This document shows positions 4,362 through 47,075 of a stretch of DNA of 64,000 nt, one piece after another. Source of the stretch: a virus; the IMG/VR virus record IMGVR_UViG_3300045988_027877, positions 1 through 64,000 of that record, one strand, 5' to 3'. The first letter of the stretch is position 1, and every line of letters starts with the position of its first letter. A model generated the notes under the pieces. It had not been told where the DNA came from. It saw only the letters and a list, made by a program, of their open reading frames with translations, and did not search any database. The position numbers and the translations under genes are program-made.

Positions 4362-4374
4362 ATATATTAATTAA

Positions 4375-4410: not shown

Positions 4411-4517
4411 CATTCTAGCGTTTATTAGGCATATGGAAAAATTAATAGTTGTGGGTCTCTGCTTTTCCATGATATGGCTTGCCATATGGGGACTCGGTAA
4501 TAAAAATAGAGATTAAT

Positions 4518-5822: not shown

Positions 5823-6258
5823 CCCAGTAATATACCCTAGAATGTTGTGGGTAGCTGGACAAGTAGAAGGACTAGATAAGATATTCATCTTTAATAAGAT
5901 GGAAGATACTTCAGAAGAGGATCCAAATGGTTACAAGAGCTTACTCTATGAATCAGAGCATGGAACAGGAGTATTAGTTACAGCTCCGGTTACTAAGAAA
6001 TCTGACAGAACTAAAGGAGCTCTAGTAATAATACTAGATTGGGATGCATTACAAGGTGGAGATGAAGCACACGAGGCTGTACATGCAGCAGATTATATAT
6101 TTGATGAATTAGGCATGTATACACAGTCTTTCGCTAATCACAATGAGCAATACGCTTACTTAGTTGGATGGATAGCTGGTTGCATTAGTAAAACAATAAT
6201 AAAATTAAAACAATATGACACACGAAGAGAGTCTGATGATGTGGAAGATAGAGCTTGA
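5791..6258 (+). CDS. hypothetical protein with HExxH motif (possible metallopeptidase)
   Basis: 155 aa containing GGDEAHEAVHAADYIF (HEAVH). Confidence 0.4.
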   Translation: MKKMPKVDAYDPVIYPRMLWVAGQVEGLDKIFIFNKMEDTSEEDPNGYKSLLYESEHGTGVLVTAPVTKKSDRTKGALVIILDWDALQGGDEAHEAVHAADYIFDELGMYTQSFANHNEQYAYLVGWIAGCISKTIIKLKQYDTRRESDDVEDRA

Positions 6259-6625
6259 CAACTTTAATAAGTTAGGTACAGACAAGGCTTCCAAAGATAT
6301 TAAGAAACTATATGAAGTACTTGATAAGGTAATTACAGCTGGTACTATTACTTACGAGGATTTTACTAAGGATATGATAGATGAATTGACTACTTTAATG
6401 GTTGAGGCTGGTAAAGAGGGAAAAGAGCTCGATAGAGCTACTGAAGTTGATACTATTTGCAAACGTTTAACTGAGAAGTATGAAGCGAAATATAACGAAG
6501 GAGAGTCTGTAGAAGGAGATCCGGAACTTTCAACAGATAATTCACAGATACAGGACGAATCGGGAGTATGTGAACCCGAATGTGCCTCTGAAGAGAGCAG
6601 AGGAGATACTCCAGAGATTGGTTAA
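6215..6625 (+). CDS. hypothetical acidic protein
   Basis: 136-aa ORF; an alternative in-frame ATG is at 6236. Confidence 0.45.
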   Translation: MTHEESLMMWKIELDNFNKLGTDKASKDIKKLYEVLDKVITAGTITYEDFTKDMIDELTTLMVEAGKEGKELDRATEVDTICKRLTEKYEAKYNEGESVEGDPELSTDNSQIQDESGVCEPECASEESRGDTPEIG

Positions 6626-7749: not shown

Positions 7750-7826
7750 TGGGGTATAACGTAATTGGCAGCGTCGCCGGCTCTAACCCGGTATGATTTG
7801 TGTGGGTTCGAATCCTACTGCCCCAA
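7750..7826 (+). tRNA. suppressor tRNA, anticodon CUA (reads UAG); acceptor stem resembles tRNA-Gln
   Basis: Hand-folded cloverleaf:
- acceptor tggggta / tgcccca (U1-A72)
- D arm acgt-aattggca-gcgt
- anticodon arm gccgg-CT[CTA]AC-ccggt, anticodon at 7783-7785
- 9-nt variable region
- T arm gtggg-ttcgaat-cctac
- discriminator A, with encoded CCA at 7827-7829. Confidence 0.85.
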
Positions 7827-7843
7827 CCAATTGATTTTTTACT

Positions 7844-8485
7844 ATGTCGTACAGAGATATTGATCCTAAATTAGCAGGTATATATATATTCAAAAATAAT
7901 ATTAACAATAAGTGTTATATAGGACAAGGAGTATCGTTGAGAAAAAGAATAAAACATCATTTTAGTAATATAAAGACTAAACGTTACGATTTACCACTAT
8001 ATAAGGCTATTGAGAAACATGGCATTCATAACTTTACTATAGATATATTAGAATCATTTATTCCTGATACTAGTCTAACCTTAGAGGAATTAATTAAGAA
8101 GTTAGACGATTTAGAAATAAAGTATATCGAGTTATATAAAGCTTATACGGAAGGTTATAACTGTACTAGAGGTGGAGATTATGGAGTTTTAGGGTTGAAG
8201 ATGACTAAAGAACAGAAGCAAAAGATTTCTGAAATATCTAAACAAAGAGCTCAAAATTACTATAAGCCTATCTACTTATACAATATAAAGGATAAATCTA
8301 TTATATATGCAATTAGTGTAACTCATGCCGCTAATATAGTAGGCTTTCATAGATCTTGTATTATAAGATGTGCCAAAGGAGAATATAACGAGACTCATGG
8401 ATATTTAATTGCTTATACAGAAGAGGAATTAAATACAAAAATACACTCTTATAAGAGGAGTAAGTATAATAGTATAAAGAGTTAA
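7844..8485 (+). CDS. GIY-YIG homing endonuclease (free-standing, TAG-free)
   Basis: N-terminal AGIYIFKNNINNKCYIGQGVSLRKRIKHHF is the GIY-YIG motif. 213 aa with no in-frame TAG. The TAA stop lies 2 nt before the terL ATG. Confidence 0.8.
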   Translation: MSYRDIDPKLAGIYIFKNNINNKCYIGQGVSLRKRIKHHFSNIKTKRYDLPLYKAIEKHGIHNFTIDILESFIPDTSLTLEELIKKLDDLEIKYIELYKAYTEGYNCTRGGDYGVLGLKMTKEQKQKISEISKQRAQNYYKPIYLYNIKDKSIIYAISVTHAANIVGFHRSCIIRCAKGEYNETHGYLIAYTEEELNTKIHSYKRSKYNSIKS

Positions 8486-29900: not shown

Positions 29901-30343
29901 TAGAAGGTCAATTATTCCCATCTACATGGATTGGTAATGATGCATATAAGACTCAGAAGCACTTATGTACATTTGAGTTAGTAGATAGGATAACTGCTCC
30001 TGTATACATTACTAATCAAGCTACAGGTTATAAACACACTTCTAATAAGGAGTTGCCATCCCCTTATACTCCTTGGGATCACTACTTCTTCCCAGCTACT
30101 ATTACTCAAACTAGTCAAACAGATATTACAGCTAAAGTAAATGCTGGGCAAAGATATCCTTTCTATACTATTTATAAAGTAACAGCTAGTAATATTCAGT
30201 GCATTACTAAAAAGATTAATTACTTATTTACTTCTGCTGGTAAATATAATGTAAATATACCCAGTAGCAGCAATCCTCCTACAGCCATAGGTGGAAATGG
30301 AGAAATTAATAGTGGTAATGACGTAATAGTTATAACAAAATGA
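26972..30343 (+). CDS. large tail protein with lamin-tail-like domain and purple-acid-phosphatase-like metallophosphoesterase (8 in-frame TAG)
   Basis: Fragments 27194, 27578, 28208, 29120 and 29744 all share the frame of ATG 26972 (about 1123 aa). Motifs: NFVELSNLTDADINLNGLSL[TAG]YSSGG (lamin-tail-like); an Ig-like segment ...HKVIIKNLSAGVYDYKVV; then SDQ[TAG]G, NTGDMTQNG, VIGNNDL and GGHKHTY (phosphoesterase). Confidence 0.6.
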
Positions 30344-33300
30344 ATTTAAGAAAGTATAATGAAACTACCGGCACTTGGGATATAATCTCTTCAGGTAATG
30401 CTTCTGGTATCATGGTTACAGACCCTCACTTTTTAGATGAGGGTCAAACCTTTAAGTCTGTTAATCAAGTATTAGTAGACATGGATGACAAAGTAGAAGA
30501 GACTAAACGTAATCTTAGTTGGGTAGTATTGAATGGTACTATTGGTGGCGGAGGAGGCAGTGGTGGAACCACAGCGTCTATAAAGCTAACTGATGGTAGT
30601 ATTGTGACTAATGAAGGTGTAAACTATTTGTATTCAACATAGACCAAACTGACACTACACTATCTTATTAGTTCTACTAAGCCAAATGAGAAGTATAATA
30701 TATCTGTATCACTAGATGGTAACACTATAATCAGTAAACAGATTGGTTATTCTTCTGTGCAAGGTACATTAGATATTCCTAATATTGCATAGTTCTCAAA
30801 TTCAGCTAGTCATAGTATAGTAGTTACTGCTGAGAATGCAGAAGGTATATCTGTTACACCGTATCTACTTACAGTAGTAGAATCTTCTATTAGCCTAGAA
30901 TCTTCAGTAACATCTGTAACTGCAACTATTGGATTACCATATAATATCACGTATAAGATAACAAATAAAGTGTTAGGTTCAGAGACTTCTCTTATTGTTA
31001 CTAATACTACTAATGGTATATCTAAGAGTTATTCTGTAGGTAAGTTTACTTCTGTAGAACCTAAACTATTAGATGTTAACTTCTTTGATCTATTTGATGG
31101 TGCTACTCCAACTGCCGGTAGTTCTTATACTATATCTGCTTAGGCTACTACATCAGTAGATACTCAGGTAATCAATTCTGATGTGATAACTAACAAAGTA
31201 GTAGTAGAAGATGGTTAGACACTAGTAGTACTAGTAGATGGAGTAACCACACAAGCAGACATAGAATCTGGAATTGAACCTACTGAGTTTGCACAATCTG
31301 GTAATATATCATTCTCATTTACTCCTTATCTAGCAGGAGTATCTATTATATACTATGCTCTAAGAATACAGAGAGGTACCATAATAAATGATATAGGTAA
31401 CTTTGATGCGGATAGCAGTAATTTCAACTCTAATAGTTATGTGATTAGAGGTAAAGCTCAAGTGTTTAGTTGGTCTATTCCATAGGAAGAAATGTACCTA
31501 GGAGACTATAAAATTACTTTAAGATGCTGGTCTGAGAAAGGTAGTCCTATAACAGATACTATAATCAGATGTAATGTAATCGCTGCAGATCAAAGTTTGA
31601 TCCCTACATAGAATCCTAACAATACCATGTACGCTCAGTGGAATATTAAACAGGCTACATTTCCTCAAGAAACATCTGCTAAAGTATGGTCTAGCATTGT
31701 TCCAAACTTTATAATGCCTGGTCAATAGGAGGAACAATCTGTTACTACTAATCTTAATGTATACGATACTAATGGTATATTATCAGGTTTCTTAAATGAA
31801 GATGGTTAGAGTAAATTAAGATTAGCTGGAGAAGCATATGGTGTAGTTGACCTATAGCCATTCGCTAGTTCTATAGCAGATAATGCAAACTGGTCTAGAT
31901 TAGGTTTTACTATATCTACTACGTTTAAAACAGATTTACATCCGTACAATGACAGAACTGTATTCTTTATAGGAGACTATTCATCAGACAATAGCTTTCA
32001 AGAAGGTATTATAGTAAGTCTAGAAGATGTAATATGGAAGTACACAGATGGAGCTATTAAGGAAAGTATATCATGTAAGATACAACAAAACACTGTAAAT
32101 ACTCTTGATTTTGTAGTAGACCAAAGTAATAAAGAAGTTAAGATATTTGTTAATGGTGTATTGAATGTAGCTAGAGAGATTAAAGATAACTTCACTTGGA
32201 GTACATCAAGTAAGATATATTTAGGATGTACTTACTAGAATGACAAACCTAGTAACTTCAGTGATGTAGAGTTCTATGAAATGAACTTGTTTAGATCTCC
32301 TCTTAATGATAAACAGATAGTTATTAATGCACTTAATGCTAGAGTAAGAGCTACATTAACTAGTACAGGTTCTGTAGATTTTACAGAGTATAACAACTTA
32401 AAGTTAAAGAACTTCTTTAGTATAACAGAGAATAGTAGTTCTTCAACTCTTTGGGATGACTCTACTGGTACATATGCTAAATTGAATTTTAACAGTCTTA
32501 TTGGTGATGTCAATAGAAAACCACCTCTTCCAGTAGTATTAATAAACTGTTCCAATTCTGGGTTTACTAAAGCTGTGTATGAAGCTATTGGACCTAATTC
32601 AACTATGTACAATGGTTGTACACTTAGTTACTTTGATCCAGACTCAACTAGCGGATCTGCTGTATCTACTACAGATGTATCTGTATAGATTCAAGGTACA
32701 TCTTCTACTGGTTACAGAAGTAAGAACTTAGAGATTGCTTTCAATAAAATACTTACAGATGATGAAGGTAAATCTATTGGACCAGAGCTATTTCAACCAA
32801 AAGCTAGTTGGATGCCTGAGAATCAATTCACATTGAAAGCTGACGTTGTAGATAGCGCTCATGCTAATAATGCTTCTATTGGTAAGTGGATTAATGACAA
32901 TGCAGATGTACTATTTGATAAGACACCTCCAATGTAGGAATTGGAATCTAGACGTCCTGTGGATTCTATAACCCCTAGTGAAGTACATAATGAGGTAACT
33001 ATCAAACATACTTTGGAAGGTTTCCCTATCATACTACTTATACAATTCGATGGTACTAGTACTCAAGAGATGTTGGGTATATATTCTTTCAACTTAGGAC
33101 GTGCTGCTTACTACAACATGGGTATGAAGTTCTTAAAGAACTTTACTACTAAGATTAAGAATGTAACTGGAGAATATGTAGATCAACCATTGCCTGCTTT
33201 CATTACTAAGTATGAAGCATATAAAGTAAATGAGAACTTTGGTAGTATCAATCAATAGTAGATTTACTCATATGAATTTGGAGATAATGCTAACATTATT

Positions 33301-36300
33301 GAGACTCCAGAAGGTATACAACATACTGCTCTATTCATGCAGGATGACTTAACCGTATTATAGCATGTAGGAGAATTTAAATATAATGGAGCTACTCAAG
33401 ATGCTACTTCTGTAACTGACAACAATATATGGTAGAGACTGTAGTTACTGTTTACTACATTAGCCGGTATGACTGGTGAAGAGATAAGTAAATACAGATG
33501 GAACACTATAACTAAAGGGTATGAAAAAACAGGAGCTACATATCCTGCATAGCAATCCTGGTCTGCTCTTGCCGATGATCTTACTTTAAGACTAAGTATT
33601 AGAAATGCATATTCATACTTTATGATATGTGTAGTATTCGGTCTTGTGGACTCATTAGGAAAGAATATGGTGTTAAGATCATGGAATGTAGGAGGATCCA
33701 CTACAGATTAGAATATGAATAAGTGGTACCCATGTTTCTATGATATGGATACTGCAAATGGAGTAAGTAATACTGGTGAAGAAAATGTTGCTAAGACGGC
33801 ATATATAGACGGTTTCAGAAATGCAGATACTACTACGGGTGTGAACTCTCTTATAATCAAATAGAACGATCCTAATAACGGGTATGACGAATACTCAAGT
33901 AGATTGTGGGATGTTCTAAGAGATAGTAGATTCATAAGTACTGGAGTATATTCAGGAAGTGATTATAATGGATTATGGGATCTATGGAGAACCAATAGTT
34001 CATTATTAACCAGTTCTTCTATGTTCGTTGAAAACTACTTTAGTGCTTAGACAAAGAACTGTGGAGAACTATTATACAACTATGACTACCGAGTTAAGTA
34101 TCTTACGAAATATTAGAAAGATGAAGATAGCCCTGCGTCATATGCGAATGTGGAGTTCTTGCATGGAACTCGTAATGACTTTGTAAGAGACTGGTTGAAG
34201 AAGAGATTGACGTTTATGGACGGAGTATTCTTATTTGCTAATAATAATATTATCTATCCATACAATGAAAAAGGTTCTTTCAAGTGTGGTGGTGCTTAGA
34301 ATAACAACTCTAAGTTAACTATTAAAATGAATAGTCCTGCTATACTTACTGTGAATATAGGTAATGCAGCAGGTAGTGAAACTAGATATTACATAGAAGA
34401 GAATGTGGATACAGATATATATCTACCGTCTTTATCTTCATTTAATACTCAGATTACAGTAAACAATATGTCTGAGATAAGTAATATGAAAGGACTGGAT
34501 GAAATTAGATTCCAAGGTTTCATGACATCAATGTCGCTACCTAGTATGTCTGAAATAGACGTATAGAATACTAGTACCTTATCATCTAATCCTATTGACT
34601 TTGCTACTATATTTGTTAAGAAACAAGATGGTCAATCTGTATCTGATATTAGACATATAAATTTATCTAATACTAATTTCTGGTCTGGAAATAGTGGCGT
34701 TAACTCATTCCCAGTAGACGTATAGAATTATAATAAATTAAAGACTATTGATATATCTAATGGTTGTGTTACATCTTTAGCATTACCTAATGCAGCTCTA
34801 TCTACTCTTACTTTAACAAACTCTGCTATTGAAAGAGTAACTTTGGCAGACCAACCTTTTATAAGTAAAGTAGATTTTACAGGATGTAATAAATTATAGT
34901 CTGTAGAGATAAGTAACTGTAACTAGATAACAGAATTAGATTTACGTAATCTTAATGACCTAACAAGTATTAATGTTATCGGGTGTGCTAAGTTAACTAA
35001 GATATACGCTCCTAACTGTAACAAACTAGCCACATTTAATGTGTCTAATGCTAATGCTCTTAAGTCTGTAACATTATCAAACTGTAGTAATGCTAGTTTA
35101 ACAATAAGCTTAGTAGGTGCTCCTAACTTAGAAGAACTAAATCTAGACAACACAAATACTACAGATGTAATAGAATTTGCTCCTAACTTCAATAAGCTTA
35201 AGACACTTAATATATCTTCTAGTAACATTAATGCGTTTTAGTTTGGTAATGATCCTGTAGCTACTACAGCCAGTGGAGAAAGGGTATTAGACCTTAGTCC
35301 ATTTAACTTTACTAATCTATATATGTACTATAACAGCTCTAAATATGTTAAGTTTAAGAATAGTAAGACTAATCCTTTTGTGGTTAATAGTTCTACATTC
35401 AATAACTGTTCTGCATTGATTAGAGTATTTGGACACATTAAACTTACATCAGGTAGTGTATTCAGTACTTGTCCTAACTTCTTTATACATGATGTGTTAT
35501 CAGATGTTACTATTAAACCTACCAGGGGATAGTGGTATGGACCAGATACAGACACTGTTGAAGGTAAACAACAATGGAATAACAATCAAGGATTAGAGAC
35601 TAATATCTCAGTAGGTACTAATAATCTAAGTAATTGTTTTGTAGGAACTAAAGTAAACATATATGATGCTTATTATATGTTGAACCTGTGTGATAATGTA
35701 GTTAATATAAATTCTATGTTCCACTCTTGTTCTAATATAAGAACTGACTTTAGTAATCCATTAAGTAGAGATACTTTCAAGTATTGTGGTAATGTGACTA
35801 GTGCTTCTACTTTATTCTATGCTACTAGAATAACAGGACCTATGTATAGTCCTACTCATACTGGGGATACTATTACGGCATATAATGGATTATTAAGTCC
35901 ATTAAAGAAGTTGGTTTCTTGTGATAGTATGTTTAGAACTACAGCTGGTACTTTCTATATAGATGATTTATTCTTTGCATAGATAGGCAATAATCAATAT
36001 TTACAATTAGCGCATCTGTCTAATATGTTCAATGAAGGAGATAGTAATGTTATATTTGTAGATAATTGTAATGAATCATTAACATCAGCTAGTGTTGCAG
36101 AATAGCACAGAGCATATGCTAGAGCATCTAAGCTGTTGAGAAATCTTCCTAATCTAGATACTATAGGAAATATGTTTAATGGTTGTTGGTTTAACTTTGA
36201 TACAGAAAGTATCAATAATGTTACATACAGTCCATTATTTGCTTATAACAAAAAATTAAGAGTAGTTAGTTGGAGTTTCAGAAACATTAAAGCTAAAGGA

Positions 36301-38280
36301 TCATTAATCAATCTATTTGGTGGTAATTCAGAATTTGATAGTAGTAACTTATTCTCTAGATAGATAACCAAATTATTAGGATGTTTTTATATAACTTCTA
36401 ATGATGGAGATAAAGTGTATTTCCCTATACACAATAGTATGTTTAGATAGATTAAACTAACCCTATAGCATATAGGTCATACTGAAGATACTAATCAGAT
36501 ACCTGGTCAATCTAGTACGTGTTTCCATGGAGCAGGAATAAATAGAACATTTGTAAGAGAGTCAGATGAGATATATCCATACGATGTATTCAAAGGAGCT
36601 GTTAATCTAATATCTTGTCCTTGTTTCTTTGCTAACATGACTGTTCCTAATTCTAGTGGAGTGGTATATGAATTACCAGGTACGATATTTCAAGACTGTA
36701 CTAATCTTGTACAGATAACTGGATGTTTCAGAAACCAATCAATCAAATATAAATTAACAGGAAAAGGATTTACTAATTGTAAACTTACTAATGTAGCTTA
36801 TGCTTTCTATGAAGATGAAGGTAACTATTCCAAAGAAGGAGGAGTTCCCTATGGTCTGTTCTATATGGAAAGAGATATAGTAAGATCATCTAAAGGTTGG
36901 AGTCATACAGATGCATTAAGACTTAATATAGACGAAAACTTTGGTATTACTGATGATGGTCAACATGATCCAGATGCGGTACTTCCTAATGCTATAGAAT
37001 ATAGTGATAGTATTAAAGCTATTCGAAGTAGTATAACAGATATGCGTTATTGTTTAGCACGTTTCTAGAGTACTAATGCGGAAGGTTATACTAGAAAACA
37101 GGTAGAGTTGAATAGTGTAGCTGATGCAGGAGACTTAATAATATCTAATGAGAACTATAATGTATCTGAGTATATTGTTAACACTGCATATGATCCTAGA
37201 GATCAGATACCTAATCCTGCATATGATCCAAACAATCCTGGTTCTATTCCATAGTATATAGATAATCCTAATAAAGATATACGTAGAGTAATAAAGAATC
37301 CTGATTACAGTCCATATAAAAAGATATGGAATATTGATTTCTATGACGGAGTATATGGACTAGGAGATATAATTCAGAATAGTACTTTGTATGCTAATAT
37401 ACAGTCAGGAGCTATAACAGATGTTGATCCTAATATTCCAGATGAATTCTTTAATGAGGATGATATGAAGACTCCTACTAATCCTACTGGTAACTATAGA
37501 TTGGATAATATGAACTATATAGTACCATCTGATTTATTCAAATACTGTGTTAATAATACTAATACTAACATATCATATGTTCTTGTTAGTAGTGGTAGAA
37601 AAACTAATATAGGAGTTCAAAGATACAATTATGGTATATATGGTAGAATACCAAGCAGATTATTTAAACCATTAACAAATATATCTAGTTTGTCTAATGT
37701 ATTTGCATACTGTTACTGTATTAATCCATATACTTGGAATGATGAGAACAATAATGGATAGATGTTTCCGCCTGATATGTTATCTAACAATACTGCATTA
37801 AAAAGCGTTTCAGGACTGTTTAAAGGAATATATGTACCAGCTAAGGTTGTAATACCTTCTACTTTACTTAGTAAATGTTTAGCTCTTACTGATATATCCT
37901 ACTTGTTCTTTGATGCTACATTCCAAGGATCTGCAAATGATGTACAGCAATTGAGTGATAATACTTTCCAGTATAACTATATACTTCAGAATATATCATA
38001 CGCATTAGCTAGTACTAATTCATCTGGAGGATGGATGGGACAAGGTCCTAAGAAAATAGGTTCCAATTTGTTTACTTAGGCTAAACATAAAATACTTACT
38101 AATGTTACTGGTCTATTCTATGGAAACACTAGTACTACAGGTTCTGTACCAGAATTCTGGACATGGTTAAATACTCTTACTAATACTAATAAACAAAATG
38201 TATTCGCTTATATGAGTAAGAGTCTTATTACTAATAGTGCTAATATACCAGAACAATGGGCAACTAATATGAGAAATTGA
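30340..38280 (+). CDS. giant multidomain tail/receptor-binding protein, about 2646 aa (38 in-frame TAG)
   Basis: I traced all gaps between track fragments codon by codon from 30340 to 38280. The only interruptions are TAG, and the first TGA is at 38278. Eleven track fragments share this frame. Domains by eye:
- LamG-like (~31900-32330)
- CotH-like (~32690-34250; IQGTSSTGYRSKNLEIAFNK, KWYPCFYDMDTANG)
- classic leucine-rich repeats (LRRs) (~34650-35240)
- BspA-type F..C..L repeats (~35380-38000). Confidence 0.7.
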
Positions 38281-38693: not shown

Positions 38694-39091
38694 TATACTT
38701 TACTTTATAGGAGCTAACAAAGTCTAATACAGCTATCGCAAAGAAATTAGATAATACACCAGATGAATAGGCAATAAAGAATTTAAATACATTGGTAGAT
38801 AATGTATTAGATCCTTTACGTAAGTTGTATGGTAAGCCTATCATTGTTACATCTGGTTATCGTAGCCCTGAAGTTAATCGTAGTGTTAATGGAGCTACAT
38901 CTAGTCAACACGCATTAGGAGAAGCTGTAGATATTAGTGTAGGTAGCAAAGAAGAGAATAAAAAATTATTTAGTCTTATAAAGGACAACTTGCCTTTTGA
39001 TCAGCTTATAAATGAACATGACTATTCGTGGGTTCATGTGTCTTACAGAGAGGGAAGATTACGTAAATAGATTTTAAATATTGGTAAATAA
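38690..39091 (+). CDS. endolysin, peptidase M15-type (3 in-frame TAG)
   Basis: MIYFTL[TAG]ELTKSNTAIAKKLDNTP...VTSGYRSPEVNRSVNGATSSQHALGEAVDI...WVHVSY matches the SGYR / S.H / D zinc-peptidase pattern. The N-terminal conserved part is encoded only if TAGs are read through. Confidence 0.7.
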
Positions 39092-41034
39092 TGAAAACAC
39101 TTTTATATAATCCAATATTCATTAATCCTTAGGCATACTATGTATTTCCAAGGTTAACTAGGTATCTGCAGCCAGACAATGAGTCTACTTCAGAACCAGC
39201 TAACTATATAGGTACAATTGAAGTAAAGGTAATAGCATATGGAGATACTACTTTAAAAAGAACCTATACTAATACAGATTCTATAGACCTAAGTGAATTT
39301 AAGAATACGTGGATACGTATTAGTCTATTCACTAAAGTAGGTTCATGTGTCTTAGGAGAGTGGAAGATTGGCAATATGGAATCAGATCTTCCTTATATAG
39401 ATCCAGAAGTATTAGCTTCTCTTAAAGCTGTAGTTATAGTTGGTAATAAGACTAATAATGATTCTGATAGAGCTATAGTCAAGAACTTGGTGGACCCTGA
39501 CAATCCCTTTGTGATTAGCAACGCAGCTTATGATAAAATGTCCAGTTATGGAGGTTATGAGTTTGCTAAGTTTGATAATACTTTAGATTGGTATAATACA
39601 GAAGGCAATGATAGTGTTGAAGTTGTGTCGAGAAATGGGCATAGTATTACTCTAAAAAGATTAACTGGTCCTAATTTTTGGTATTTCCAAAACAGCACAT
39701 TTAGAGGGCTTATATCGAATGTTATTCCATTTAAAGTTAATAGTAATAAGAATATAACTGTCGTTTGGGACGTACACGGTCTTAGCATTTCAGAAGGAAA
39801 AGATAAAAGTGTTAGAGTACAAGAACTTGTATTAAATCCTAATGAAGACAATTATACTAACTTAAAAACACTAAACGAAGAAGAACTAGCTCAAATAGAT
39901 ATTAGTACAAACTCTTTGTATTACTTATTATGGTTTGATTTGTCTACTCTTGCAGTAGATGAAGAAGTAACTATCGAAATGCTTCCCCTGTTCGAAGGTG
40001 CCTTCGTCACCGATGGAATCAACGACCTGATTACTTCCACCAAGACCGTACAGGAGATGCTGGGAGGAAGTAATGAGATTACGGTGGTGAGTATGATTCA
40101 TCAGATAAAAGAATCTATATATAATAATCGTGCTTATACTAATTATATAAGTGGTACTTATGGACATATTAGGAATCAAGTAGCTGACACTAAAACAGGT
40201 ATTTATGGTTATACCGTTACTGATTTAAACAACAGTTCTACAAATATTAAAGGAAGTGTTATTAATAATATATTAGGTGATAAGAACGACTATCTATATG
40301 ATGCAAATACTAATGTTGAGTTAGGTAATGCTAAATATTCAGTACAGAATTATATTAAAAGTGATGGTACAGTAAGTAATATTGGTTCACAACTTGCTTG
40401 GTATTGGACAATCATCGCCAACAAGGTACTGACTACCGACCAAATCAACCAGGTAATCGCCTACTTCAACTTGGATAGAACTCTTAAACCTGATATACTG
40501 TGTAATACTATCAAGCAGGGAATCACCAACGAGAACCACGCAGAGTTTGGCGACAGGCTGATTGACTTTTCCGGTAACGGTAGAGATATTCAGCTGAACA
40601 ATATTGCATGGAAGGGGGATTCAGGTATAGGAAAGTATGAGGTTGATTTCGCATCATTAAATTATAATAATACAACATCAGTATTTACAGCTACCTATAA
40701 ATCATGCTCAATTAGCAAGATTATAAAAGATGGTGTTGGAAATATTTTCTATAATTGGGGACAAACTTTAGCAGCCATTAATTCCACAAAAATACAAGTG
40801 ATCGGATTAGATGAAATTGGAGCTATATTAGAGTTTACGTATTTAGATGAATCCGGTAATAGCACAACTAAACAGTATTCTACCGATGGTATTTATGATT
40901 TACCTGCTTCGGCTGCATATCAAGGTGATTCTCACAATACCAATTTTAGATTTTCTATACGAGGATATATTGGAGACTGTGATATAACCATCACCCAGAT
41001 TCCCTCCCACGCAGGTGCTCTCTGCCTTGACTGA
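39091..41034 (+). CDS. tail fibre protein with LamG-like modules, N-terminal part (ends at the in-frame TGA at 41032)
   Basis: ATG 39091 is in frame with track ORF 39376..41034 through a single TAG (39130-39132). Motifs LFEGAFVTDGINDLI and LIDFSGNGRDIQLNN. Patchy GC content. Confidence 0.6.
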
Positions 41035-42978
41035 GTAAATGACTTTGGTAAGGTGACAGGGATGCCGATTTACAAGGATTATACTTTCATTATAGACTAT
41101 GAACGTATAAGTTATGCTTCATCTGAAAGATGGGTAGCTGGTGTTGTATCTAAATCTCATGTAGCTAATCAAGGAGCTTTTATTTTAATGACAGCTAATA
41201 CAACAGTTGAGCCCTACAAACAAGCATATTCTTTTGGAGGAGTTACTTCATTTAATAGAGATGATTTTACAAGAGCTTTAGTATATCAAAGTAAGTATAA
41301 ATGTGGAGATGTCGATTTAACAGTAGGCGAAGGAGTTGATAGTAATACTCTTTGGCTAGGAACATTTAGAGATAATGACCAGAGGTTCTTCAACGGAGCT
41401 ATCTACTCTCTCATGTCCTTCCCTTATAGCATGTCCAAATTCTTGATAGAGCGTCAGTTGAAGAAGCATAAGCTGGGTACGCTGTATCCGGATATGGTGG
41501 AGTTCAGACCTGTTATAAAGAGTAACGTTTTATTAGATGCTAAGCCAACATTCGTTTTTCGTGGTACTAGTACTTATCTAAATGCAGGAGATTATGTTCC
41601 TGAAAATAGTCAAATATGGGTAAGTATTAAGATGAATAACATTGCCGATAGAATAACTAAGTTTACTGTTAATGGCAAAACTATTGATATTCCTGAAAAT
41701 GCTTATAGTGAAGTCACATTGCAATATGGTTTCCCTTTTGTAATAGATAAGTCTCCACAGAAGATTACTATGACTATCGAACAGGATGAAAACTACGTCC
41801 AATGGAATCCCACTGTGGAAAGTAATGTTGAGTATGCTTCTATTAATTATTTGCTTAGAATACCCGGTCAAGGCACAGTTACTCCTGTATCAGGTCAATA
41901 TTACCCAATATTATCTACTGATACCTCTCTAGTAATATATGTTGCTACAAAAGGAGTGGATGAAGTTGCTAATCTAACTATCAATGGACAAGAGCCTACC
42001 AGTAGTTCTATTCATGTTGATGGTAGATTTAAGTTTGAATTTCCTTTCAACAACTCCCCTCAAAAGATAAATATCACAATTGACGAGTACATCAGATACG
42101 AGGATATTGTGCAGCCGTATCCAAGTTTCGTTAAGTTAGAAAACCTAGATAGAACTTATACTTATACTTGGGGAGATAAGCTAAAAGTAGGAGATACTAT
42201 CAGGTATAATTCATCTGTAAACCTATTAGAAGGAGCTTATACTTTAAAGGGTCAATTAGAGTGCAACGGTGTATATGTATATGATAATAATCAATATATT
42301 ACTGTTGCTAAAGAGATGATATTTGCTTGGACAAATAGCCCTATTTGGTCAATTGATGATAATGAACCTAAATGTATTCTATCTCCTAGACTACTACGTA
42401 TTCCAAATTCTAGCTATAAGATATTGGGTTATATTCCTGATATATCAGGTCACGGTAATCATGGTAAGATAAACAATTCTGCTTATGCGGAAGGAAGTGG
42501 AGTTAATGAAGATGGTTCATACCAATTTGATGGCGTAGACGACTTTGTTACTATTCCTACTATTGTTGGTGGTAAGCAGGTATTGATGAAGGTGAATTGG
42601 CAAAGTGATGCTGCAAAAGCTATACTATATGACCAAAGAGGTTATCCTAATGAGTTTGCTATCTATAATGCTGATGTGGACAATAATAATCCTGTTTTTG
42701 CTTATCAGGCAAGAAATAATGGGCAAACATATATTGATGGTATTTTGAATAAAAATATCAAAGCATCTGAATTGAGGGCTATTACTCATAATATAACTAT
42801 TACAAATGAGTTAAGTTCAGGAGGAAATAATACCTATCCTATTATTGGTTCAAGCAAGGCGAATGCTAACTTTGTTAATATGGCATTATATGACTTCATG
42901 CTCTTCGATGAAATCTCAACAGATGACAAGATTTTAGAGCTGAATAAGTATGTAGGGATAGAAGGCAATACAGAATGA
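41035..42978 (+). CDS. tail fibre protein with LamG-like modules, C-terminal part (same frame as 39091..41034)
   Basis: Track ORF 41053..42978 (GTG start) is in the same frame as the upstream ORF, with no stop between 41035 and 41052. Motifs FFNGAIYSLMSFPYSMSKFLI and ISGHGNHGKINNSAYAEGSGVNEDGSYQFDGVDDFVTIP. No TAG. Confidence 0.55.
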   Translation, partial: VNDFGKVTGMPIYKDYTFIIDYERISYASSERWVAGVVSKSHVANQGAFILMTANTTVEPYKQAYSFGGVTSFNRDDFTRALVYQSKYKCGDVDLTVGEGVDSNTLWLGTFRDNDQRFFNGAIYSLMSFPYSMSKFLIERQLKKHKLGTLYPDMVEFRPVIKSNVLLDAKPTFVFRGTSTYLNAGDYVPENSQIWVSIKMNNIADRITKFTVNGKTIDIPENAYSEVTLQYGFPFVIDKSPQKITMTIEQDENYVQWNPTVESNVEYASINYLLRIPGQGTVTPVSGQYYPILSTDTSLVIYVATKGVDEVANLTINGQEPTSSSIHVDGRFKFEFPFNNSPQKINITIDEYIRYEDIVQPYPSFVKLENLDRTYTYTWGDKLKVGDTIRYNSSVNLLEGAYTLKGQLECNGVYVYDNNQYITVAKEMIFAWTNSPIWSIDDNEPKCILSPRLLRIPNSSYKILGYIPDISGHGNHGKINNSAYAEGSGVNEDGSYQFDGVDDFVTIPTIVGGKQVLMKVNWQSDAAKAILYDQRGYPNEFAIYNADVDNNNPVFAYQARNNGQTYIDGILNKNIKASELRAITHNITITNELSSGGNNTYPIIGSSKANANFVNMALYDFMLFDEISTDDKILELNKYVGIEGNTE

Positions 42979-43024: not shown

Positions 43025-43300
43025 ATGAAATATATAGTAGTACCAGCTGAAGAGCTGATTGACATAACACAAGAAACATTAGATGAATTACATTTAGTAT
43101 TTCGTTATAGTGTAGATGGAACTAAAGTAATAATGAAAGTTGCTAACTATGAATTACTATTCCCATCAATAATGACTTTACCATTAACAGATGAAGATGA
43201 AGTTACAGAAGTAGTATATCCTTATCCTACTTATGAAGGTGACGCATTGGAAGAACTGTTAAACAGTGATGAATGGACTAATAAAGAAGAACAACTATGA
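43025..43300 (+). CDS. hypothetical small acidic protein
   Basis: 91-aa ORF; TGA stop in an ATGA overlap with the next gene. Confidence 0.45.
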   Translation: MKYIVVPAEELIDITQETLDELHLVFRYSVDGTKVIMKVANYELLFPSIMTLPLTDEDEVTEVVYPYPTYEGDALEELLNSDEWTNKEEQL

Positions 43301-43827
43301 GAGAAACTATAAATTTCGTACCTAGTAAGTCAACCCCCAATCACAAAGAAGTACAGTATTGGATAGACTTACAAACTGATCCATATGGTAGATGTATTAA
43401 AACATGGACTGGATCTGAATGGAGTACTATTACTGATAATGATTTGATTGAGACTATTTAGAAAGAACTAGACAGTAAAGCTAATAAAGCCACTACTCTA
43501 TCTGGTTATGGTATTTCTGATGCATATACTAAAACTCAAGTAGATGCTAAAGTAGCATCAGTATATAGAGTGAAAGGTTCTGTAGCTAATTTCGAAGCAC
43601 TACCTGCTACAGCTGTAGTTGGTGATGTATATAACTTAACAGATACTGGAGCTAACTATGTATGTATTGTAGCTAATCCTGCTGAATGGGATAAGTTATC
43701 TGAAACAGTAGACCTTAGTCATTGTGTAGCTTCAGATGATGTATCTAATGTAGTTGCTATGACTCAAGCTGAATATGAAGCTCTACAGACTAAAGATTCT
43801 AAAACACTTTATTTAATTCACGAATAA
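43297..43827 (+). CDS. tail fibre protein (one in-frame TAG)
   Basis: ...ATTLSGYGISDAYTKTQVDAKVASVYRVKGSVANFEALPATAVVGDVYNLTDTGANY...WDKL is the common phage tail-fibre repeat motif. In frame with track ORF 43570..43827. Confidence 0.65.
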
Positions 43828-43828
43828 T

Positions 43829-45070
43829 ATGAAACTAGGAGATAGAAATATTATAGCTGCATACTTAGGTGATGTGAACGTATTCACTAATTACTATGGC
43901 GTCAGCTTTCCTCTTGAACCTCAGAATACTATTCTAACTAGAACAGGTTATATGCCTTGGCATAAAGAACTACCTATACAGTCTAAGATGAAGTCTTGCA
44001 CGATTACTTCTGATGGAACAGTTAAATATCTTAGTGTTACAGATAGAACCAAGTATGAAGATGGTACTGATAGAGACATGACATTAAATACTATGGTAGA
44101 AATACCAGAGTTCTGGTATAAATGTATGAGAGATGATACTACTGTATATTTGAACTTATATCCAGCAGATCCTCATATTCCAGAAGCTGAACATGTGGAG
44201 AAGTTCTATATTTCTGCATATGAAGCATCTAATGTAGATAATGTGTTAAAATCTATTAACAATGGATCTATTACTCCAGTAGTAAACATTAATAGAACTA
44301 CTATGCAATCTAGAGCTAGGGCTAATAACTCCAGTACTACGAATTGGAACATGTATACTTACAGAGCTCATAGAATACTTACTGTGCTTTACTTAGTTGA
44401 ATATGCATGTACCAACAGTTAGAAAGCTTTCAATGCCGAATTAACTGCAGAAGGATATCATCAAGGAGGATTAGGAGATGGAGTTACTACAGGTAATATT
44501 AAAGTAAATGGAGTTGATACATGGAGTTTTATACCTTGTGGAAGTACAGACGAACATGGAAACTCTACTGGTATAACTTCCGTTACTGTTAATAGTACTG
44601 ACGCAGAAGGTGTTGCAACTCAGAAATCTTATAATGTTCCTACTTATAGAGGTATTGAGAATCCATTTGGTCATGTATGGAAAAATTGTATAGACACACT
44701 TGTACATTTTAATGCACAAACTAATAAAAATGACGTTTATATAAATACCGACTTAAGTACATTTGGATCTACTGATATATCTGATTATGACTATCAATGT
44801 AGTACTACTATTACTGAAGGTTATAAGAAGAAATTGGTATACAATGCAGCATTTGACATACTTCCTCCAATAGATGAAGCATTTGGTGGTAGTACTACAA
44901 CTTATTGGTGTGACTACAATTGGACTAATAATAGTACAACTGATAGGCTAACATTAATAGGCGGTCGTGCTGGTTCTGGCGCGGCTGCTGGGTTGCTCTC
45001 TGTTTATTCTGCCGATGGGCTTGGCGCTGCTCATGCTGGTGTCGGTACTCGGTTAATCTATATACCGTAA
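43829..45070 (+). CDS. DGR target protein (variable receptor-binding protein, probable C-type-lectin fold), one in-frame TAG
   Basis: Track ORFs 43829..44422 and 44834..45070 share a frame; the gap was traced and contains only TAG 44420. YRGIENPFGHVWKNCID precedes the Gly/Ala-rich VR-encoded C-terminus GGRAGSGAAAGLLSVYSADGLGAAHAGVGTR. Confidence 0.8.
44960..45052 (+). repeat. DGR variable repeat (VR)
   Basis: Aligned by hand to 45109-45201 at a constant offset of 149. Over 91 positions, 63 are identical and 28 are mismatched; every mismatch is an A in the TR. Confidence 0.95.
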
Positions 45071-45089
45071 TTTAATTAAAAATATAGAT
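45056..45089 (+). other. hairpin immediately 3' of VR, spanning the target stop codon
   Basis: atctatat (45056-45063) pairs with atatagat (45082-45089): 8 bp with an 18-nt loop. Confidence 0.4.
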
Positions 45090-45108
45090 AGGTTGTTCCT
45101 CATCATTA

Positions 45109-45201
45109 AGCAGTAATGCTAGTAATAGCACGAATGCTAGGTTACTCAATGTTAATTCTAACAATGAGCTTAGCAATGCTAATGCTAATGTCAGTACACT
45201 G
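45109..45201 (+). repeat. DGR template repeat (TR)
   Basis: A-rich noncoding copy of the VR. Read in the VR frame it is rich in AAT/AAC/AGT/AGC codons (SSNASNSTNARLLNVNSNNELSNANANVST). Contains 32 adenines, of which only 4 are retained in the VR. Confidence 0.95.
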
Positions 45202-45328
45202 AATCCGTAATTAAACAAATAAAGAAATTAAGAGACTGTAGAGGGAGACCTTACCCCTTGGTAAAAGATAACATACTAATTAACTGTGTTAGTAACTTTT
45301 TTCGTGAAAACTCGGTAATGGATTACAG

Positions 45329-46354
45329 ATGAAAAGATATAATAATTTATTTGACAAAATAGTAACTTTAGACAATTTATATCTAGCGGATAAAAGAGCT
45401 AGAAGACAAAAACAACATAGACCTGAAATAATTAATTTTGATAAGAATAGAGAAAAATTACTTTTAGATCTATAGAAGAAATTAATAGATGGTGAATATA
45501 AGACTTCTGAATATTATATATTCAAGATATATGAACCTAAAGAAAGAGAAATATTCAAGCTTCCATACTATCCAGATAGAATAGTACATCATGCTATTAT
45601 GAATATTATGGAACCTATTTGGATATCATCCTTCATTAAAGGAACTTATAGTTGTATAAAAAATCGTGGTATACATAAAGCTCTGAAAGATGTTAAGTTC
45701 GCACTGAAAGATGAAGTCAATACAAAGTACTGTCTTAAGTTAGATGTCAGAAAATTTTATCCTTCAATAGATCATGATATATTAAAATAGCTAATAAGAA
45801 GAAAAGTAAAAGATAAGAAATTATTAATTATATTAGATGAAATAATAGATTCTGCATAGGGAGTACCAATTGGTAATTACTTATCACAATTCTTTGCTAA
45901 TTTATATTTAACATATCTAGATCACTGGATTAAAGAAGAGAAACATATAAAATACTATTTCAGGTACGCAGACGATATAGTAATATTAGGAAAAGACAAA
46001 GAAGAACTACGTCAGTTGTTCAAAGACATGAAAGAGTATATTGAAACTAAACTCAATATAAAGTTTAAAGACAATTGGCAGATATTCAAAGTAGATTCTA
46101 GAGGAATAGACTTTGTAGGATATAGAGTATATCACACTCATGTTCTTCTAAGGAAAACTATTAAGAAGAACTTCTGTAGAAAGATCAGTAAATTAAACAG
46201 AAGAGACGATCTTAGTAAGAGTGAATACAAATAGAAGATCTGTAGTTATATAGGTTGGATTAAATATTGTAATGGTAAGAATCTTTTAAGTAAAATGACA
46301 AAACATAAAGAGCTATTGGAATACATTAATACAAGTAAACGTAAGAGAACCTAA
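45329..46354 (+). CDS. DGR reverse transcriptase (4 in-frame TAG)
   Basis: ATG 45329 is in frame with track ORFs 45599..45790 and 46016..46234. TAGs at 45473, 45788, 45857 and 46232; TAA at 46352. Motifs: KEREIFKLPYYPDRIVHHA, LKLDVRKFYPSIDH, GVPIGNYLSQFFANLYL, FRYADDIVILG. Confidence 0.9.
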
Positions 46355-46399
46355 TACATATAACTACGTTTTATAAGTAGTTTTCAGATTCATTGTCAG

Positions 46400-46438
46400 A
46401 TCCTAGTACATAAAGTTTGCGCTAGGATTAATTTTTTT
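46400..46438 (+). terminator. rho-independent terminator after the RT
   Basis: atcctag...ctaggat (7-bp stem) followed by taattttttt. Confidence 0.55.
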
Positions 46439-46451: not shown

Positions 46452-47075
46452 ATGTTTATAGAGTTTTTACCACAGATACTTACAGGAATAGCTTCTATCG
46501 CAGCACTCTGGTTTACTTATAATCAGTATACTAAAAATAAAATGACTGACTATAAGATTGAGAAATGGAGAAAAGAAGAACATCAGAATAACGTAAAGAA
46601 GGCTGGTAGCATTGCTACTATATATGGTGAGTTGTGGGAGTTATTATACTTCCTCAAAGCGGATAGAGTATACCTAATTCAACCACATCCTTTGTATAGA
46701 GAGATGTTCATATCTGCTACGCTTGAAGTAAAGAAGTACGGAGTATCTTCAGTAAGAGAATCTCTATGTGATATTAAGATTGAATCAGTAGCTAACCTCG
46801 TATCAGAACTAGCAAACCAAGATTATTTGTTCATAAAAGATATTGAATCATCTAATCTGGATAACAAGATTAAATCTATAATGACAAGTAACGGTTGTCA
46901 TACTACTGCTATACGAAAGTTATCAGACGAAAAGAATAACTGGATTGGAAGTATAGTAATAGGCTACATTCATGACTTCGATGAAAATGAAGTAGATGTA
47001 GAACTAGTAGAAAAAATGTCTAGATCTAGTGCGCTAGCAATCTAGTATATATTACCAGAATTTAAAACAGAATAA
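46452..47075 (+). CDS. hypothetical protein with N-terminal TM helix (one in-frame TAG)
   Basis: Track ORF 46452..47045 continues past its TAG to TAA at 47073. N-terminal ILTGIASIAALWF. Confidence 0.5.

What the first reader, a model, noticed from the sequence alone, without database searches (positions are those of the whole stretch)
43829..46438. Complete DGR (target-VR / TR / RT) inside the tail-fibre module, with no recognisable Avd gene
Seen directly:
- The last ~30 codons of the target gene (VR, 44960-45052) recur 149 nt downstream as a noncoding A-rich copy (TR, 45109-45201).
- A 341-codon ORF follows, with reverse-transcriptase motifs (LDVRKFYPSIDH, IGNYLSQ, YADD).
- A terminator closes the unit.

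Established knowledge: this order, with adenine-only differences, defines a DGR that diversifies a receptor-binding protein.

Unusual points:
- I see no Avd-like small basic helical ORF. Only 258 nt separate the target from the RT, and the TR occupies most of that.
- The RT itself needs four TAG read-throughs, so diversification depends on the phage suppressor tRNA.
- The element sits in a crAss-like recoded genome.
Basis: partly seen in the sequence, partly recalled or inferred. Interest (0 to 1): 0.85.

Follow-up and report, generated by a model that had tools for sequence, protein, structure and literature searches.

The report
Active Avd-less DGR in crAss-like phage
This is a genuine and apparently active diversity-generating retroelement that rewrites the tip of a tail protein in a stop-codon-recoded crAss-like gut phage, but every feature flagged as unusual, including the missing Avd gene, is already documented for this lineage.

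Summary
VR (44960-45050) and TR (45109-45199) differ at 28 of 91 positions, and every difference is an adenine in the TR. The 341-codon ORF is a DGR-type reverse transcriptase: its best solved-structure match is Bordetella bRT (E=1e-52). The target models as a C-type-lectin/FGE fold, closest to the DGR variable proteins TaqVP and Mtd. Public relatives show the element working. Among 117 near-identical target proteins, the only hypervariable residues are the ten encoded by AAY codons in the TR. In 35 related contigs, 73% of TR-adenine sites differ from the VR, against 0.5% of other sites, and the TR itself is almost invariant.

No Avd or HRDC gene was found in the window or in the rest of a relative's genome. 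This is the known Avd-less "target-TR-RT" architecture (Wu 2018, lineage 3; Morozova 2020, crAssphage). Amber codons in crAss-like DGR RT genes and DGRs in Suoliviridae are also published. RefSeq Buchavirus genomes carry the same cassette.

Added here: a covariation-supported RNA (Rfam RT-17) lies between TR and RT, in the slot held by the priming spacer RNA in BPP-1. Two public relatives have adenine-depleted TRs, which remains unexplained.

Verdict: real, ordinary, low novelty.

The parts
43829..45070 (+). DGR target gene. It encodes a 413-aa tail protein with one in-frame TAG (codon 198, 44420-44422) read as Gln. The fold is C-type-lectin/FGE-like, with the VR at the C-terminus.
   Evidence: - phrog_5302 'tail protein', E=1.1e-72.
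- AlphaFold2 model of the 96%-identical P0001: pLDDT 79.6, pTM 0.84.
- Foldseek top hits: TaqVP 5vf4 (E=1e-6), Mtd 1yu0-1yu4 and FGE.
- Residue 198 is an invariant Gln in 21 homologues.
44960..45050 (+). Variable repeat (VR), codons 378-408 of the target.
   Evidence: - 28 of 91 mismatches to the TR, all at TR adenines.
- Hypervariable in public relatives only at the ten AAY-templated codons.
- 12 distinct VRs among 13 genomes that carry only two TR versions, twelve of them identical.
45044..45070 (+). Conserved 3' flank of the VR (GGTACTCGGTTAATCTATATACCGTAA). This is the IMH-like boundary where the VR and the TR flank diverge. The assignment is by position and conservation only.
   Evidence: - Nearly invariant among five genomes that are otherwise 77-92% identical.
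- Exact copies in 40 IMG/VR contigs.
- VR position 45049 stays T whatever the TR base is (A in the window, G in cr52_1).
45056..45089 (+). 8-bp inverted repeat (ATCTATAT / ATATAGAT, 18-nt loop) spanning the target stop codon. It is a possible counterpart of the hairpin/cruciform that follows the IMH in BPP-1. Support is weak.
   Evidence: - Perfect inverted repeat.
- One compensatory change in cr52_1 (ACCTATAT / ATATAGGT).
- Folding energy is not better than shuffled sequence (z = -0.36).
45109..45199 (+). Template repeat (TR). It is non-coding, has 32 adenines, and includes ten AAY codons in the VR frame.
   Evidence: -.
- Nearly invariant in 36 of 38 public contigs that share its 3' flank.
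45247..45335 (+). [quoted passage not shown] P1 hairpin 45251-45264; P2 45283-45290 paired with 45309-45316; P2b 45295-45296 paired with 45304-45305. It is inferred to be the DGR RNA 'spacer' that positions or primes reverse transcription.
   Evidence: - RF03020: 40.8 bits against a gathering score of 40.4.
- Sub-threshold RT-17 hits at the same place in seven related DGR loci.
- Covariation over 10 loci: 90.7% of cells paired versus 31-47% with slid partners, and 10 of 14 pairs show compensatory changes.
- The same slot holds Phage_DGR RNA in BMP-1, RT-3 in hankyphage and RT-14 in BalMu-1.
45329..46354 (+). DGR reverse transcriptase, 341 aa, with four in-frame TAG codons (49, 154, 177, 302) read as Gln.
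   Evidence: - PDB best hit is bRT 8ub7_A, E=1e-52 over residues 2-323. The next hit is a group II RT at 2.4e-19.
- RVT_1, E=3.4e-17; phrog_1423, E=2.8e-121.
- [I/V/L]GxxxSQ motif (IGNYLSQ) and YADD are present.
- TAG-recoded relatives carry 5-9 TAGs at shifting positions.
46399..46438 (+). Probable intrinsic terminator that closes the unit: a stem-loop at 46399-46429 followed by a U run.
   Evidence: - -12.7 kcal/mol, z = -3.59, 0 of 200 shuffles as stable.
- A stem-loop plus T run sits at the same place in relatives, with a different stem sequence.
- Not reported by the strict consensus scan.
7750..7829 (+). Suppressor tRNA with anticodon CTA, which reads TAG. It is required to translate the RT and the target.
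   Evidence: - ARAGORN.
- Rfam tRNA, 50.7 bits.
- TAG lies in frame in most long + strand ORFs of the window.

Best explanation
This is an active diversity-generating retroelement of the Avd-less 'target-TR-RT' type.

Proposed mechanism:
1. The late tail-gene transcript runs through the target gene, the TR, a compact structured RNA (RT-17 class) and the RT gene, ending at the terminator near 46430.
2. The RT and the target are translated only when the phage's TAG-reading suppressor tRNA is available.
3. The RT uses the structured RNA just 3' of the TR to start cDNA synthesis. It copies the TR faithfully except at adenines.
4. The cDNA replaces VR 44960 to about 45048 in the target gene. The 3' limit is set by the conserved VR flank.
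5. This randomises ten AAY-templated residues (380, 383, 386, 391, 393, 395, 396, 400, 402, 404) and a few others on the C-type-lectin ligand-binding face of a 413-aa tail protein. The result is variation in receptor binding.

Shown here: the anatomy, the RT class, the target fold, the adenine-specific VR variation with an invariant TR across public genomes, and the conserved RNA structure.

Inferred by analogy with the Bordetella phage BPP-1 DGR: self-priming from the spacer RNA, the cDNA replacement step, and Avd-independence of the enzyme.
For: - VR/TR: 28 of 28 mismatches fall at TR adenines, P about 1.6e-19.
- RT: bRT 8ub7 E=1e-52 against 2.4e-19 for the best group II RT, with IGNYLSQ and YADD motifs. 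It shows 34% identity over 94% of its length to the BMP-1 RT.
- Target fold: the closest PDB folds are the DGR variable proteins TaqVP and Mtd, then FGE.
- Protein variation across public genomes: 117 proteins at 92-96% identity. All 10 columns with entropy above 1 bit are the 10 AAY codons of the TR. Mean entropy is 0.05 bit over residues 1-377 and 1.18 bit over 378-408.
- DNA variation across public genomes: in 35 IMG/VR contigs, 822 of 1128 TR-A sites differ from the VR, against 11 of 2057 non-A sites. Thirteen genomes carry only two TR versions (twelve identical, one differing at 2 positions) but 12 different VRs. The TR is almost invariant in 36 of 38 contigs.
- In diverged relatives, each VR follows its own TR at non-A sites.
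- RNA element: the Rfam RT-17 hit, plus covariation with 90.7% of cells paired and 10 of 14 pairs compensatory. The analogous slot is occupied in the BPP-1-like, hankyphage and BalMu-1 DGRs. RT-10 (now Phage_DGR) was placed between TR and RT in BPP-1 by PMC5737381.
- No Avd or HRDC match among 31 small ORFs of the window, or among 19 small CDS in the non-overlapping 41 kb of cr52_1.
- Avd-less lineage precedent: PMC5758913 and PMC7290462.
Against: - No direct evidence of transcription, cDNA or homing for this element. Activity is inferred from variation among assembled public genomes, not from reads within one sample.
- There is no GC-rich IMH as in BPP-1. The hairpin after the VR is thermodynamically unremarkable.
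- The window RT-17 score barely passes the gathering threshold, and relatives score below it.
- Avd proteins are poorly conserved, so a very divergent accessory protein, or one supplied by the host, cannot be excluded by profile searches. About 36 kb of this genome lies outside the window and was checked only through a relative.
Confidence: 0.93

Rival explanations
1. The cassette is a relic. The RT/TR pair once diversified the target but no longer functions, and the VR differences are frozen history.
For: - Some relatives have lost the TR and RT yet keep a diversified VR: cr109_1, and probably cr113_1.
- Incomplete cassettes are common in crAss-like phages (PMC7290462, PMC11054128).
- Two public relatives have adenine-depleted TRs.
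Against: - In the window the RT ORF is intact under code 15 and all catalytic motifs are present.
- The TR keeps 32 adenines with no non-A mismatch to the VR.
- Twelve other public genomes carry this TR (eleven identical, one with 2 changes) and show eleven further VRs, 12 distinct VRs among the 13 genomes in all. That requires recent and repeated rewriting.
Confidence: 0.05
2. An Avd-like or other accessory protein is in fact required, and is encoded elsewhere in the phage genome or by the host. The element would then be a canonical DGR with a dispersed accessory gene.
For: - Avd is essential in BPP-1.
- Avd sequences are very poorly conserved (PMC5758913).
- Roughly 36 kb of this genome is outside the window.
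- In hankyphage the avd gene lies downstream of the RT rather than upstream.
Against: - No PF05635 or HRDC hit at E<=0.1 among 31 small ORFs of the window, or among 19 small CDS in the non-overlapping part of cr52_1.
- The immediate neighbours are acidic (pI 4.1, 4.7, 5.5). One of them has a tail-tip domain. Avd proteins average pI 9.5.
- The gene after the RT differs between relatives that all keep the DGR.
- Wu et al. also found no avd elsewhere in genomes with Avd-less DGRs (PMC5758913).
Confidence: 0.1
3. The RT belongs to a group II intron, a retron or a defence RT, and the VR/TR similarity is an unrelated tandem duplication.
For: - RefSeq relatives annotate the gene as 'Intron reverse transcriptase' or 'retron-type'.
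- NCBIfam's best hit is the group II RT/maturase model.
Against: - All NCBIfam hits fall far below their cut-offs (116 bits against 300; 70 against 200; 59 against 235).
- The PDB match to bRT is 33 orders of magnitude better than to any group II or retron RT.
- The motif is IGxxxSQ, not QGxxxSP.
- There is no group II intron or retron RNA hit in the region.
- The adenine-only mismatch pattern cannot arise from a plain duplication.
Confidence: 0.01

Closest known systems
DGR cassettes of RefSeq Buchavirus genomes cr52_1, cr60_1 and cr56_1 (Suoliviridae, Loutivirinae)
   Same: - Same gene order and neighbours.
- 77-89% nucleotide identity across the cassette.
- Same 413-aa target and a 336-341-aa RT with in-frame TAGs.
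- Same TR position, spacer RNA and terminator position.
   Different: - TRs differ at a few non-A sites, and each VR follows its own TR.
- The gene after the RT differs: a 207-aa membrane protein here and in cr52_1, but a 'holin' in cr60_1 and cr56_1.
- The RefSeq records label the genes but do not annotate a DGR, VR or TR.
crAssphage LMMB / Carjivirus DGR (Morozova et al. 2020, PMC7290462)
   Same: - Architecture TG-VR-TR-RT with no avd.
- The target is a tail-fibre protein at the end of the structural module.
- The RT of a Carjivirus genome (C0521BD4) is 54% identical, and that locus has an RT-17-like RNA upstream of the RT.
   Different: - Different family (Intestiviridae), using the standard genetic code.
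- Different target N-terminal region (486-aa tail-collar fibre protein).
Wu et al. 2018 DGR Architecture A1 / RT lineage 3 (PMC5758913)
   Same: - No accessory gene.
- Core order target-TR-RT.
- C-type-lectin target.
   Different: Lineage 3 membership and the CLec3 VR class were not tested by phylogeny here. They are inferred from the similarity to the Carjivirus RT that Morozova et al. placed in lineage 3.
Bordetella phage BPP-1/BMP-1 DGR (prototype)
   Same: - Homologous RT: 34% identity, with bRT the best PDB match.
- Mtd-like C-type-lectin target with a C-terminal VR.
- AAY-rich TR.
[quoted passage not shown]
   Different: - BPP-1 has avd between the target and the TR, a GC-rich IMH with a strong hairpin, and a different, longer spacer RNA family (Phage_DGR RF03022, 127 nt, against RT-17, 95 nt).
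- BPP-1 uses the standard genetic code.
Zeta crAss-like phage DGRs (PMC12386605)
   Same: - Mostly Avd-less.
- GxxxSQ RTs, and amber codons inside seven RT genes.
- C-type-lectin tail-fibre targets.
   Different: Different Crassvirales clade and different target architectures.

Membership tests
Diversity-generating retroelement (DGR) | A TR/VR pair whose differences are (almost) only at TR adenines | tested here: met
   28 of 28 mismatches fall at TR adenines over 91 nt, P about 1.6e-19. The same pattern appears in 35 related contigs.
Diversity-generating retroelement (DGR) | An RT of the DGR clade with the [I/V/L]GxxxSQ motif and YxDD | tested here: met
   IGNYLSQ and YADD are present. bRT 8ub7 matches at E=1e-52, against 2.4e-19 for the best non-DGR RT.
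Diversity-generating retroelement (DGR) | The VR lies at the C-terminus of a ligand-binding C-type-lectin (or Ig) fold protein | tested here: met
   AlphaFold2 model with pTM 0.84. Foldseek best hits are TaqVP (E=1e-6), Mtd and FGE. The VR covers codons 378-408 of 413.
Diversity-generating retroelement (DGR) | TR codons are biased to AAY so that mutagenesis cannot create stop codons | tested here: met
   The TR has ten AAY codons, and no TR codon can mutate to TAA or TGA through A-to-N changes.
Diversity-generating retroelement (DGR) | One-way transfer: the VR varies while the TR stays constant among related genomes | tested here: met
   Thirteen genomes have 12 distinct VRs but only two TR versions. 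36 of 38 TRs are near-identical. All hypervariable protein columns coincide with AAY codons.
Diversity-generating retroelement (DGR) | IMH / IMH* elements and a downstream hairpin that define the 3' end of homing | tested here: inconclusive
   A highly conserved VR 3' flank differs from the TR flank. It is not GC-rich, and the 8-bp inverted repeat is not thermodynamically significant.
Diversity-generating retroelement (DGR) | An accessory variability determinant (Avd) or other accessory gene. This is present in about 74% of DGRs and is not universal. | tested here: not met
   No PF05635 or HRDC hit in the window or in the remainder of a relative's genome. The neighbouring ORFs are acidic. Avd is not a defining feature of the Avd-less lineage (PMC5758913).
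Diversity-generating retroelement (DGR) | Adenine-mutagenised cDNA synthesis and retrohoming demonstrated | not testable with these tools
   This needs infected cells or purified components.
Avd-less DGRs, Architecture A1 / RT lineage 3 (Wu et al. 2018) | Core order target-TR-RT with no accessory gene | tested here: met
   The 258-nt target-RT gap holds only the TR and the structured RNA. The same layout occurs in nine related loci.
Avd-less DGRs, Architecture A1 / RT lineage 3 (Wu et al. 2018) | The RT falls inside lineage 3 of the Wu et al. RT tree, and the VR is of class CLec3 | not tested
Membership is inferred from 54% identity to a Carjivirus RT, a genus whose DGR RT was placed in lineage 3 (PMC7290462).
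Rfam RT-17 RNA (RF03020) | Score at or above the gathering threshold, with the consensus structure kept | tested here: met
   40.8 bits against 40.4, which is marginal. The structure is independently supported by covariation across 10 loci.
Group II intron RT/maturase, retron RT or defence RT | Score above the family cut-off, together with the associated intron or msr-msd RNA | tested here: not met
   TIGR04416 scores 116 bits against a cut-off of 300; Drt3a 70 against 200; retron St85 59 against 235. There is no intron or retron RNA hit.

The most novel reading that the evidence does not exclude
In this Avd-less lineage the RT, together with a compact RT-17-class spacer RNA (about 95 nt), is sufficient for self-primed adenine mutagenesis. 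Because the VR and TR 3' boundaries are so alike (GTCGGTACTCGG versus GTCAGTACACTG), discrimination between donor and target is leaky. The element would then occasionally retrohome into its own TR and destroy its adenines ('template burn-out'). This may be what is seen in 2 of 38 public relatives (L013, L027), which have intact RTs and authentic TR flanks.
Probability: 0.2. Interest if true: 0.55.

Novelty: new member of a known kind. Interest (0 to 1): 0.2.

Why it matters
The cassette shows how an abundant, uncultured gut phage lineage (Buchavirus-like Suoliviridae) keeps changing its receptor-binding tail protein, and the public data show it doing so across many human samples.

Practical points:
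- DGR finders run with the standard genetic code will miss this element, because the RT is broken by four TAG codons.
- The Rfam RT-17 motif can now be read as the spacer RNA of this Avd-less DGR lineage.

Neither point changes current understanding of DGRs. Avd-less cassettes, crAss-like DGRs and amber-recoded DGR RT genes are all already published.

Tried and rejected
- Sequence searches of the target against PDB, both as a single sequence and as a 21-sequence profile, found nothing. The fold had to be assigned from an AlphaFold2 model.
- Pfam found no domain in the target.
- PHROGs found nothing for the two large ORFs upstream, 39091-41034 and 41062-42978.
- Rfam at the gathering threshold found nothing in nine related loci. 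The RT-17 hits there appear only with permissive filters and score below threshold.
- Single-sequence folding of 45240-45335 does not recover the covariation-supported structure and is no better than shuffled sequence.
- The hairpin after the VR is likewise not significant.
- The consensus terminator scan missed the stem-loop after the RT, and its only hit lies inside the VR, probably by chance.
- Yutin et al. 2021, cited elsewhere for Suoliviridae DGRs, does not mention DGRs in its main text. Siranosian et al. mention DGRs only in a reference.
- I looked for complementarity between the TR 3' end and the spacer RNA by eye and saw nothing convincing.
- I considered the 207-aa ORF downstream (46452-47075) as an accessory gene and rejected it. 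It is acidic, its sequence begins with a hydrophobic stretch, it has no family match beyond an uncharacterised PHROG, and it is replaced by a different gene in cr60_1 and cr56_1, which keep the DGR.
Full report
**1. What is in the sequence**

Region 43829-46438 contains, on the + strand:
- a 413-codon ORF (43829-45070) with one in-frame TAG;
- a 258-nt gap;
- a 341-codon ORF (45329-46354) with four in-frame TAGs (codons 49, 154, 177, 302);
- a stem-loop followed by a U run.

The last 91 nt before the end of the first ORF (44960-45050) align without gaps to 45109-45199, at an offset of 149 nt. There are 28 mismatches, and in all 28 the downstream copy has A where the upstream copy does not. No other mismatch occurs. 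The chance that 28 mismatches all fall on the 32 adenines of a 91-nt repeat is about 1.6e-19. A scan of both strands with the non-adenine positions of the TR found no second VR in the window.

**2. Genome context**

Nearly every long + strand ORF contains in-frame TAG codons. A tRNA with anticodon CTA lies at 7750-7829. The window carries crAss-specific tail-ring domains.

The DGR region is 77-92% identical to RefSeq genomes of the genus Buchavirus (Suoliviridae, Crassvirales). TAG198 of the target aligns with a Gln that is invariant in 21 homologues. RT TAG49 aligns with a Gln of Bordetella bRT. TAG-recoded relatives have 5-9 TAGs at shifting positions in the RT. The ORFs are therefore real genes read with TAG = Gln.

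**3. The reverse transcriptase**

- It matches Pfam RVT_1 and phrog_1423.
- Among solved structures its best match is the Bordetella DGR RT bRT (8ub7, E=1e-52, residues 2-323). The next hit is a group II intron RT at 2.4e-19.
- It carries the DGR signature IGxxxSQ and the YADD motif.
- NCBIfam models for group II, retron and defence RTs all score far below their cut-offs.
- Homologues occur in 158 phage records, including BMP-1, hankyphages, and several Suoliviridae and Carjivirus genomes.

**4. The target**

Sequence searches give only 'tail protein' (phrog_5302), with no Pfam or PDB sequence match. The roughly 390-residue module is widespread: 1619 clusters at 50% identity. It usually forms the C-terminus of larger proteins.

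An AlphaFold2 model of a 96%-identical homologue, built with a 21-sequence alignment, has pLDDT 79.6 and pTM 0.84. Its closest solved folds are the DGR variable protein TaqVP (E=1e-6), Mtd of BPP-1, and formylglycine-generating enzymes. This is the C-type-lectin/FGE fold typical of DGR targets.

**5. Is it active?**

- Among 117 target proteins at 92-96% identity, the only columns with entropy above 1 bit are residues 380, 383, 386, 391, 393, 395, 396, 400, 402 and 404. These are exactly the ten AAY codons of the TR. Mean entropy is 0.05 bit over residues 1-377 and 1.18 bit over 378-408.
- At the DNA level, 35 of the 37 IMG/VR contigs in which both repeats could be read show an adenine-only VR/TR pair. 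The 40 contigs were found through the conserved VR flank; three were cut short. Across the 35, 822 of 1128 TR-A sites differ from the VR, against 11 of 2057 other sites.
- Thirteen genomes carry only two TR versions, twelve of them identical, but 12 different VRs. 24 of the 26 variable VR columns are TR-A positions.
- 36 of 38 contigs that share the TR 3' flank have an almost invariant TR.
- In diverged relatives, each VR follows its own TR at non-adenine sites.

This is the signature of continuing one-way, adenine-mutagenic transfer.

**6. Avd**

The 258-nt gap has no room for a gene. The flanking ORFs are acidic (pI 4.1, 4.7 and 5.5), and one of them carries a tail-tip domain. No Avd (PF05635) or HRDC match was found among 31 small ORFs of the window, or among 19 small CDS in the 41 kb of cr52_1 that the window does not cover. 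Nine related loci have the same target-TR-RT layout.

This is a known state:
- 29% of curated DGRs lack accessory genes, RT lineage 3 characteristically lacks avd, and no avd was found elsewhere in those genomes (PMC5758913).
- The first crAss-like DGR was described as Avd-less and placed in lineage 3 (PMC7290462).
- Most Zeta crAss-like DGRs lack Avd, and seven of their RT genes contain amber codons (PMC12386605).
- DGR cassettes in Suoliviridae are mentioned in PMC11054128.

**7. The rest of the gap**

Positions 45247-45335 match Rfam RT-17 at 40.8 bits, against a gathering score of 40.4. Seven related DGR loci, including a Carjivirus and a Psychrobacillus phage, give sub-threshold RT-17 hits at the same place, immediately upstream of the RT.

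An alignment of ten loci supports a 5-bp hairpin (45251-45264) and a second interrupted helix (45283-45316). 90.7% of cells are paired, against 31-47% when partners are slid. Ten of 14 pairs show compensatory changes, and 0 of 500 shuffles reach the observed covariation score.

As controls, the same TR-to-RT slot holds:
- the Phage_DGR RNA in BMP-1;
- RT-3 in a hankyphage;
- RT-14 in BalMu-1.

Weinberg et al. placed RT-10 in this slot in BPP-1 and speculated that other RT motifs serve other DGRs (PMC5737381). I therefore read RT-17 as the spacer RNA of this lineage. Its priming role is inferred from BPP-1 and is not shown here.

**8. Boundaries**

The VR 3' flank (45044-45070) is the most conserved stretch of the locus, and it differs from the TR flank. 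VR position 45049 stays T whether the TR has A or G, so transfer probably stops before it.

An 8-bp inverted repeat spans the stop codon and shows one compensatory change in cr52_1, but it is not energetically significant. After the RT, the stem-loop at 46399-46429 (-12.7 kcal/mol, z = -3.6) plus a U run is a plausible terminator. Its position is conserved, with a different stem sequence, in relatives.

**9. Verdict**

The observation and the core interpretation are correct, and the element looks active. All three 'unusual points' are already published for crAss-like or Avd-less DGRs, and near-identical genomes are public. This is a new member of a known kind, and interest is low.

Two small additions come out of this work:
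- RT-17 is linked to this DGR lineage.
- Two relatives have adenine-depleted templates, which remains unexplained.

Noticed in passing
L013 (IMGVR_UViG_3300045988_054064) and L027 (IMGVR_UViG_3300045988_045526), in the TR slot about 65 nt downstream of the start of the conserved VR 3'-flank motif: Two of 38 public relatives have an intact RT (89-91% identity) and authentic TR flanks, but the TR body is stripped of adenines (0-4 A instead of about 30) and is G-rich. The changes are A>G 18-23, A>C 6-7 and A>T 2-3, plus 5-10 T>G. The slot is not a copy of the contig's own VR. In L027 the first 6 nt keep their adenines. This could be retrohoming into the template itself ('burn-out') or an assembly artefact.
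   Followed up: partly
L004 (cr109_1) 6072-6308; also H6 (cr113_1): cr109_1 keeps the target gene with a diversified VR and the conserved VR flank, but lacks the TR, the spacer RNA and the RT. The sequence after the target runs into the same terminator that follows the RT in cr60_1. This is either a clean loss of the cassette or a lineage that never gained it, with a frozen VR.
   Followed up: partly
window 7750-7829 and 7844-8485: The suppressor tRNA (anticodon CTA, labelled tRNA-Pyl by ARAGORN) is immediately followed by a 213-aa ORF. Among the 31 small ORFs scanned, one has a GIY-YIG domain (E=8.9e-9) and one has NUMOD-like hits. By its sequence this ORF is the likely GIY-YIG homing-endonuclease-like gene, but the scan output does not say which member matched.
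   Followed up: no
window 30340-38280: A single 2646-codon ORF with 38 in-frame TAG codons, the largest gene of the window. It was not analysed. The homologous region of relatives is annotated as 'internalin-like' or as a very large hypothetical protein.
   Followed up: no
window 43297-45070: The roughly 390-residue DGR-target module is usually the C-terminal part of 500-1500-aa proteins. Here it is a stand-alone 413-aa protein. It is preceded by a separate 176-aa ORF that ends in a Phage_tail_C tip domain and stops 1 nt before the target start. This suggests a split tail-fibre architecture.
   Followed up: no
L059 (ERZ791864.3591), TR: One metagenome contig has a TR that lacks one GCTAAT unit, a 6-nt in-frame deletion within the GCTAATGCTAAT repeat.
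   Followed up: no
L051 36172-36552 (cr52_1): The RefSeq relative carries an annotated tmRNA (SsrA) gene in its early region. The window contains no tmRNA.
   Followed up: no
L008 (Psychrobacillus phage Perkons, Antarctic soil) 3372-4577: A phage of a Gram-positive soil bacterium has an RT 49% identical to the window RT, closer than several Suoliviridae RTs. It has the same RT-17-like RNA and the target-gap-RT layout. This suggests horizontal spread of this Avd-less cassette across very different phage groups.
   Followed up: no
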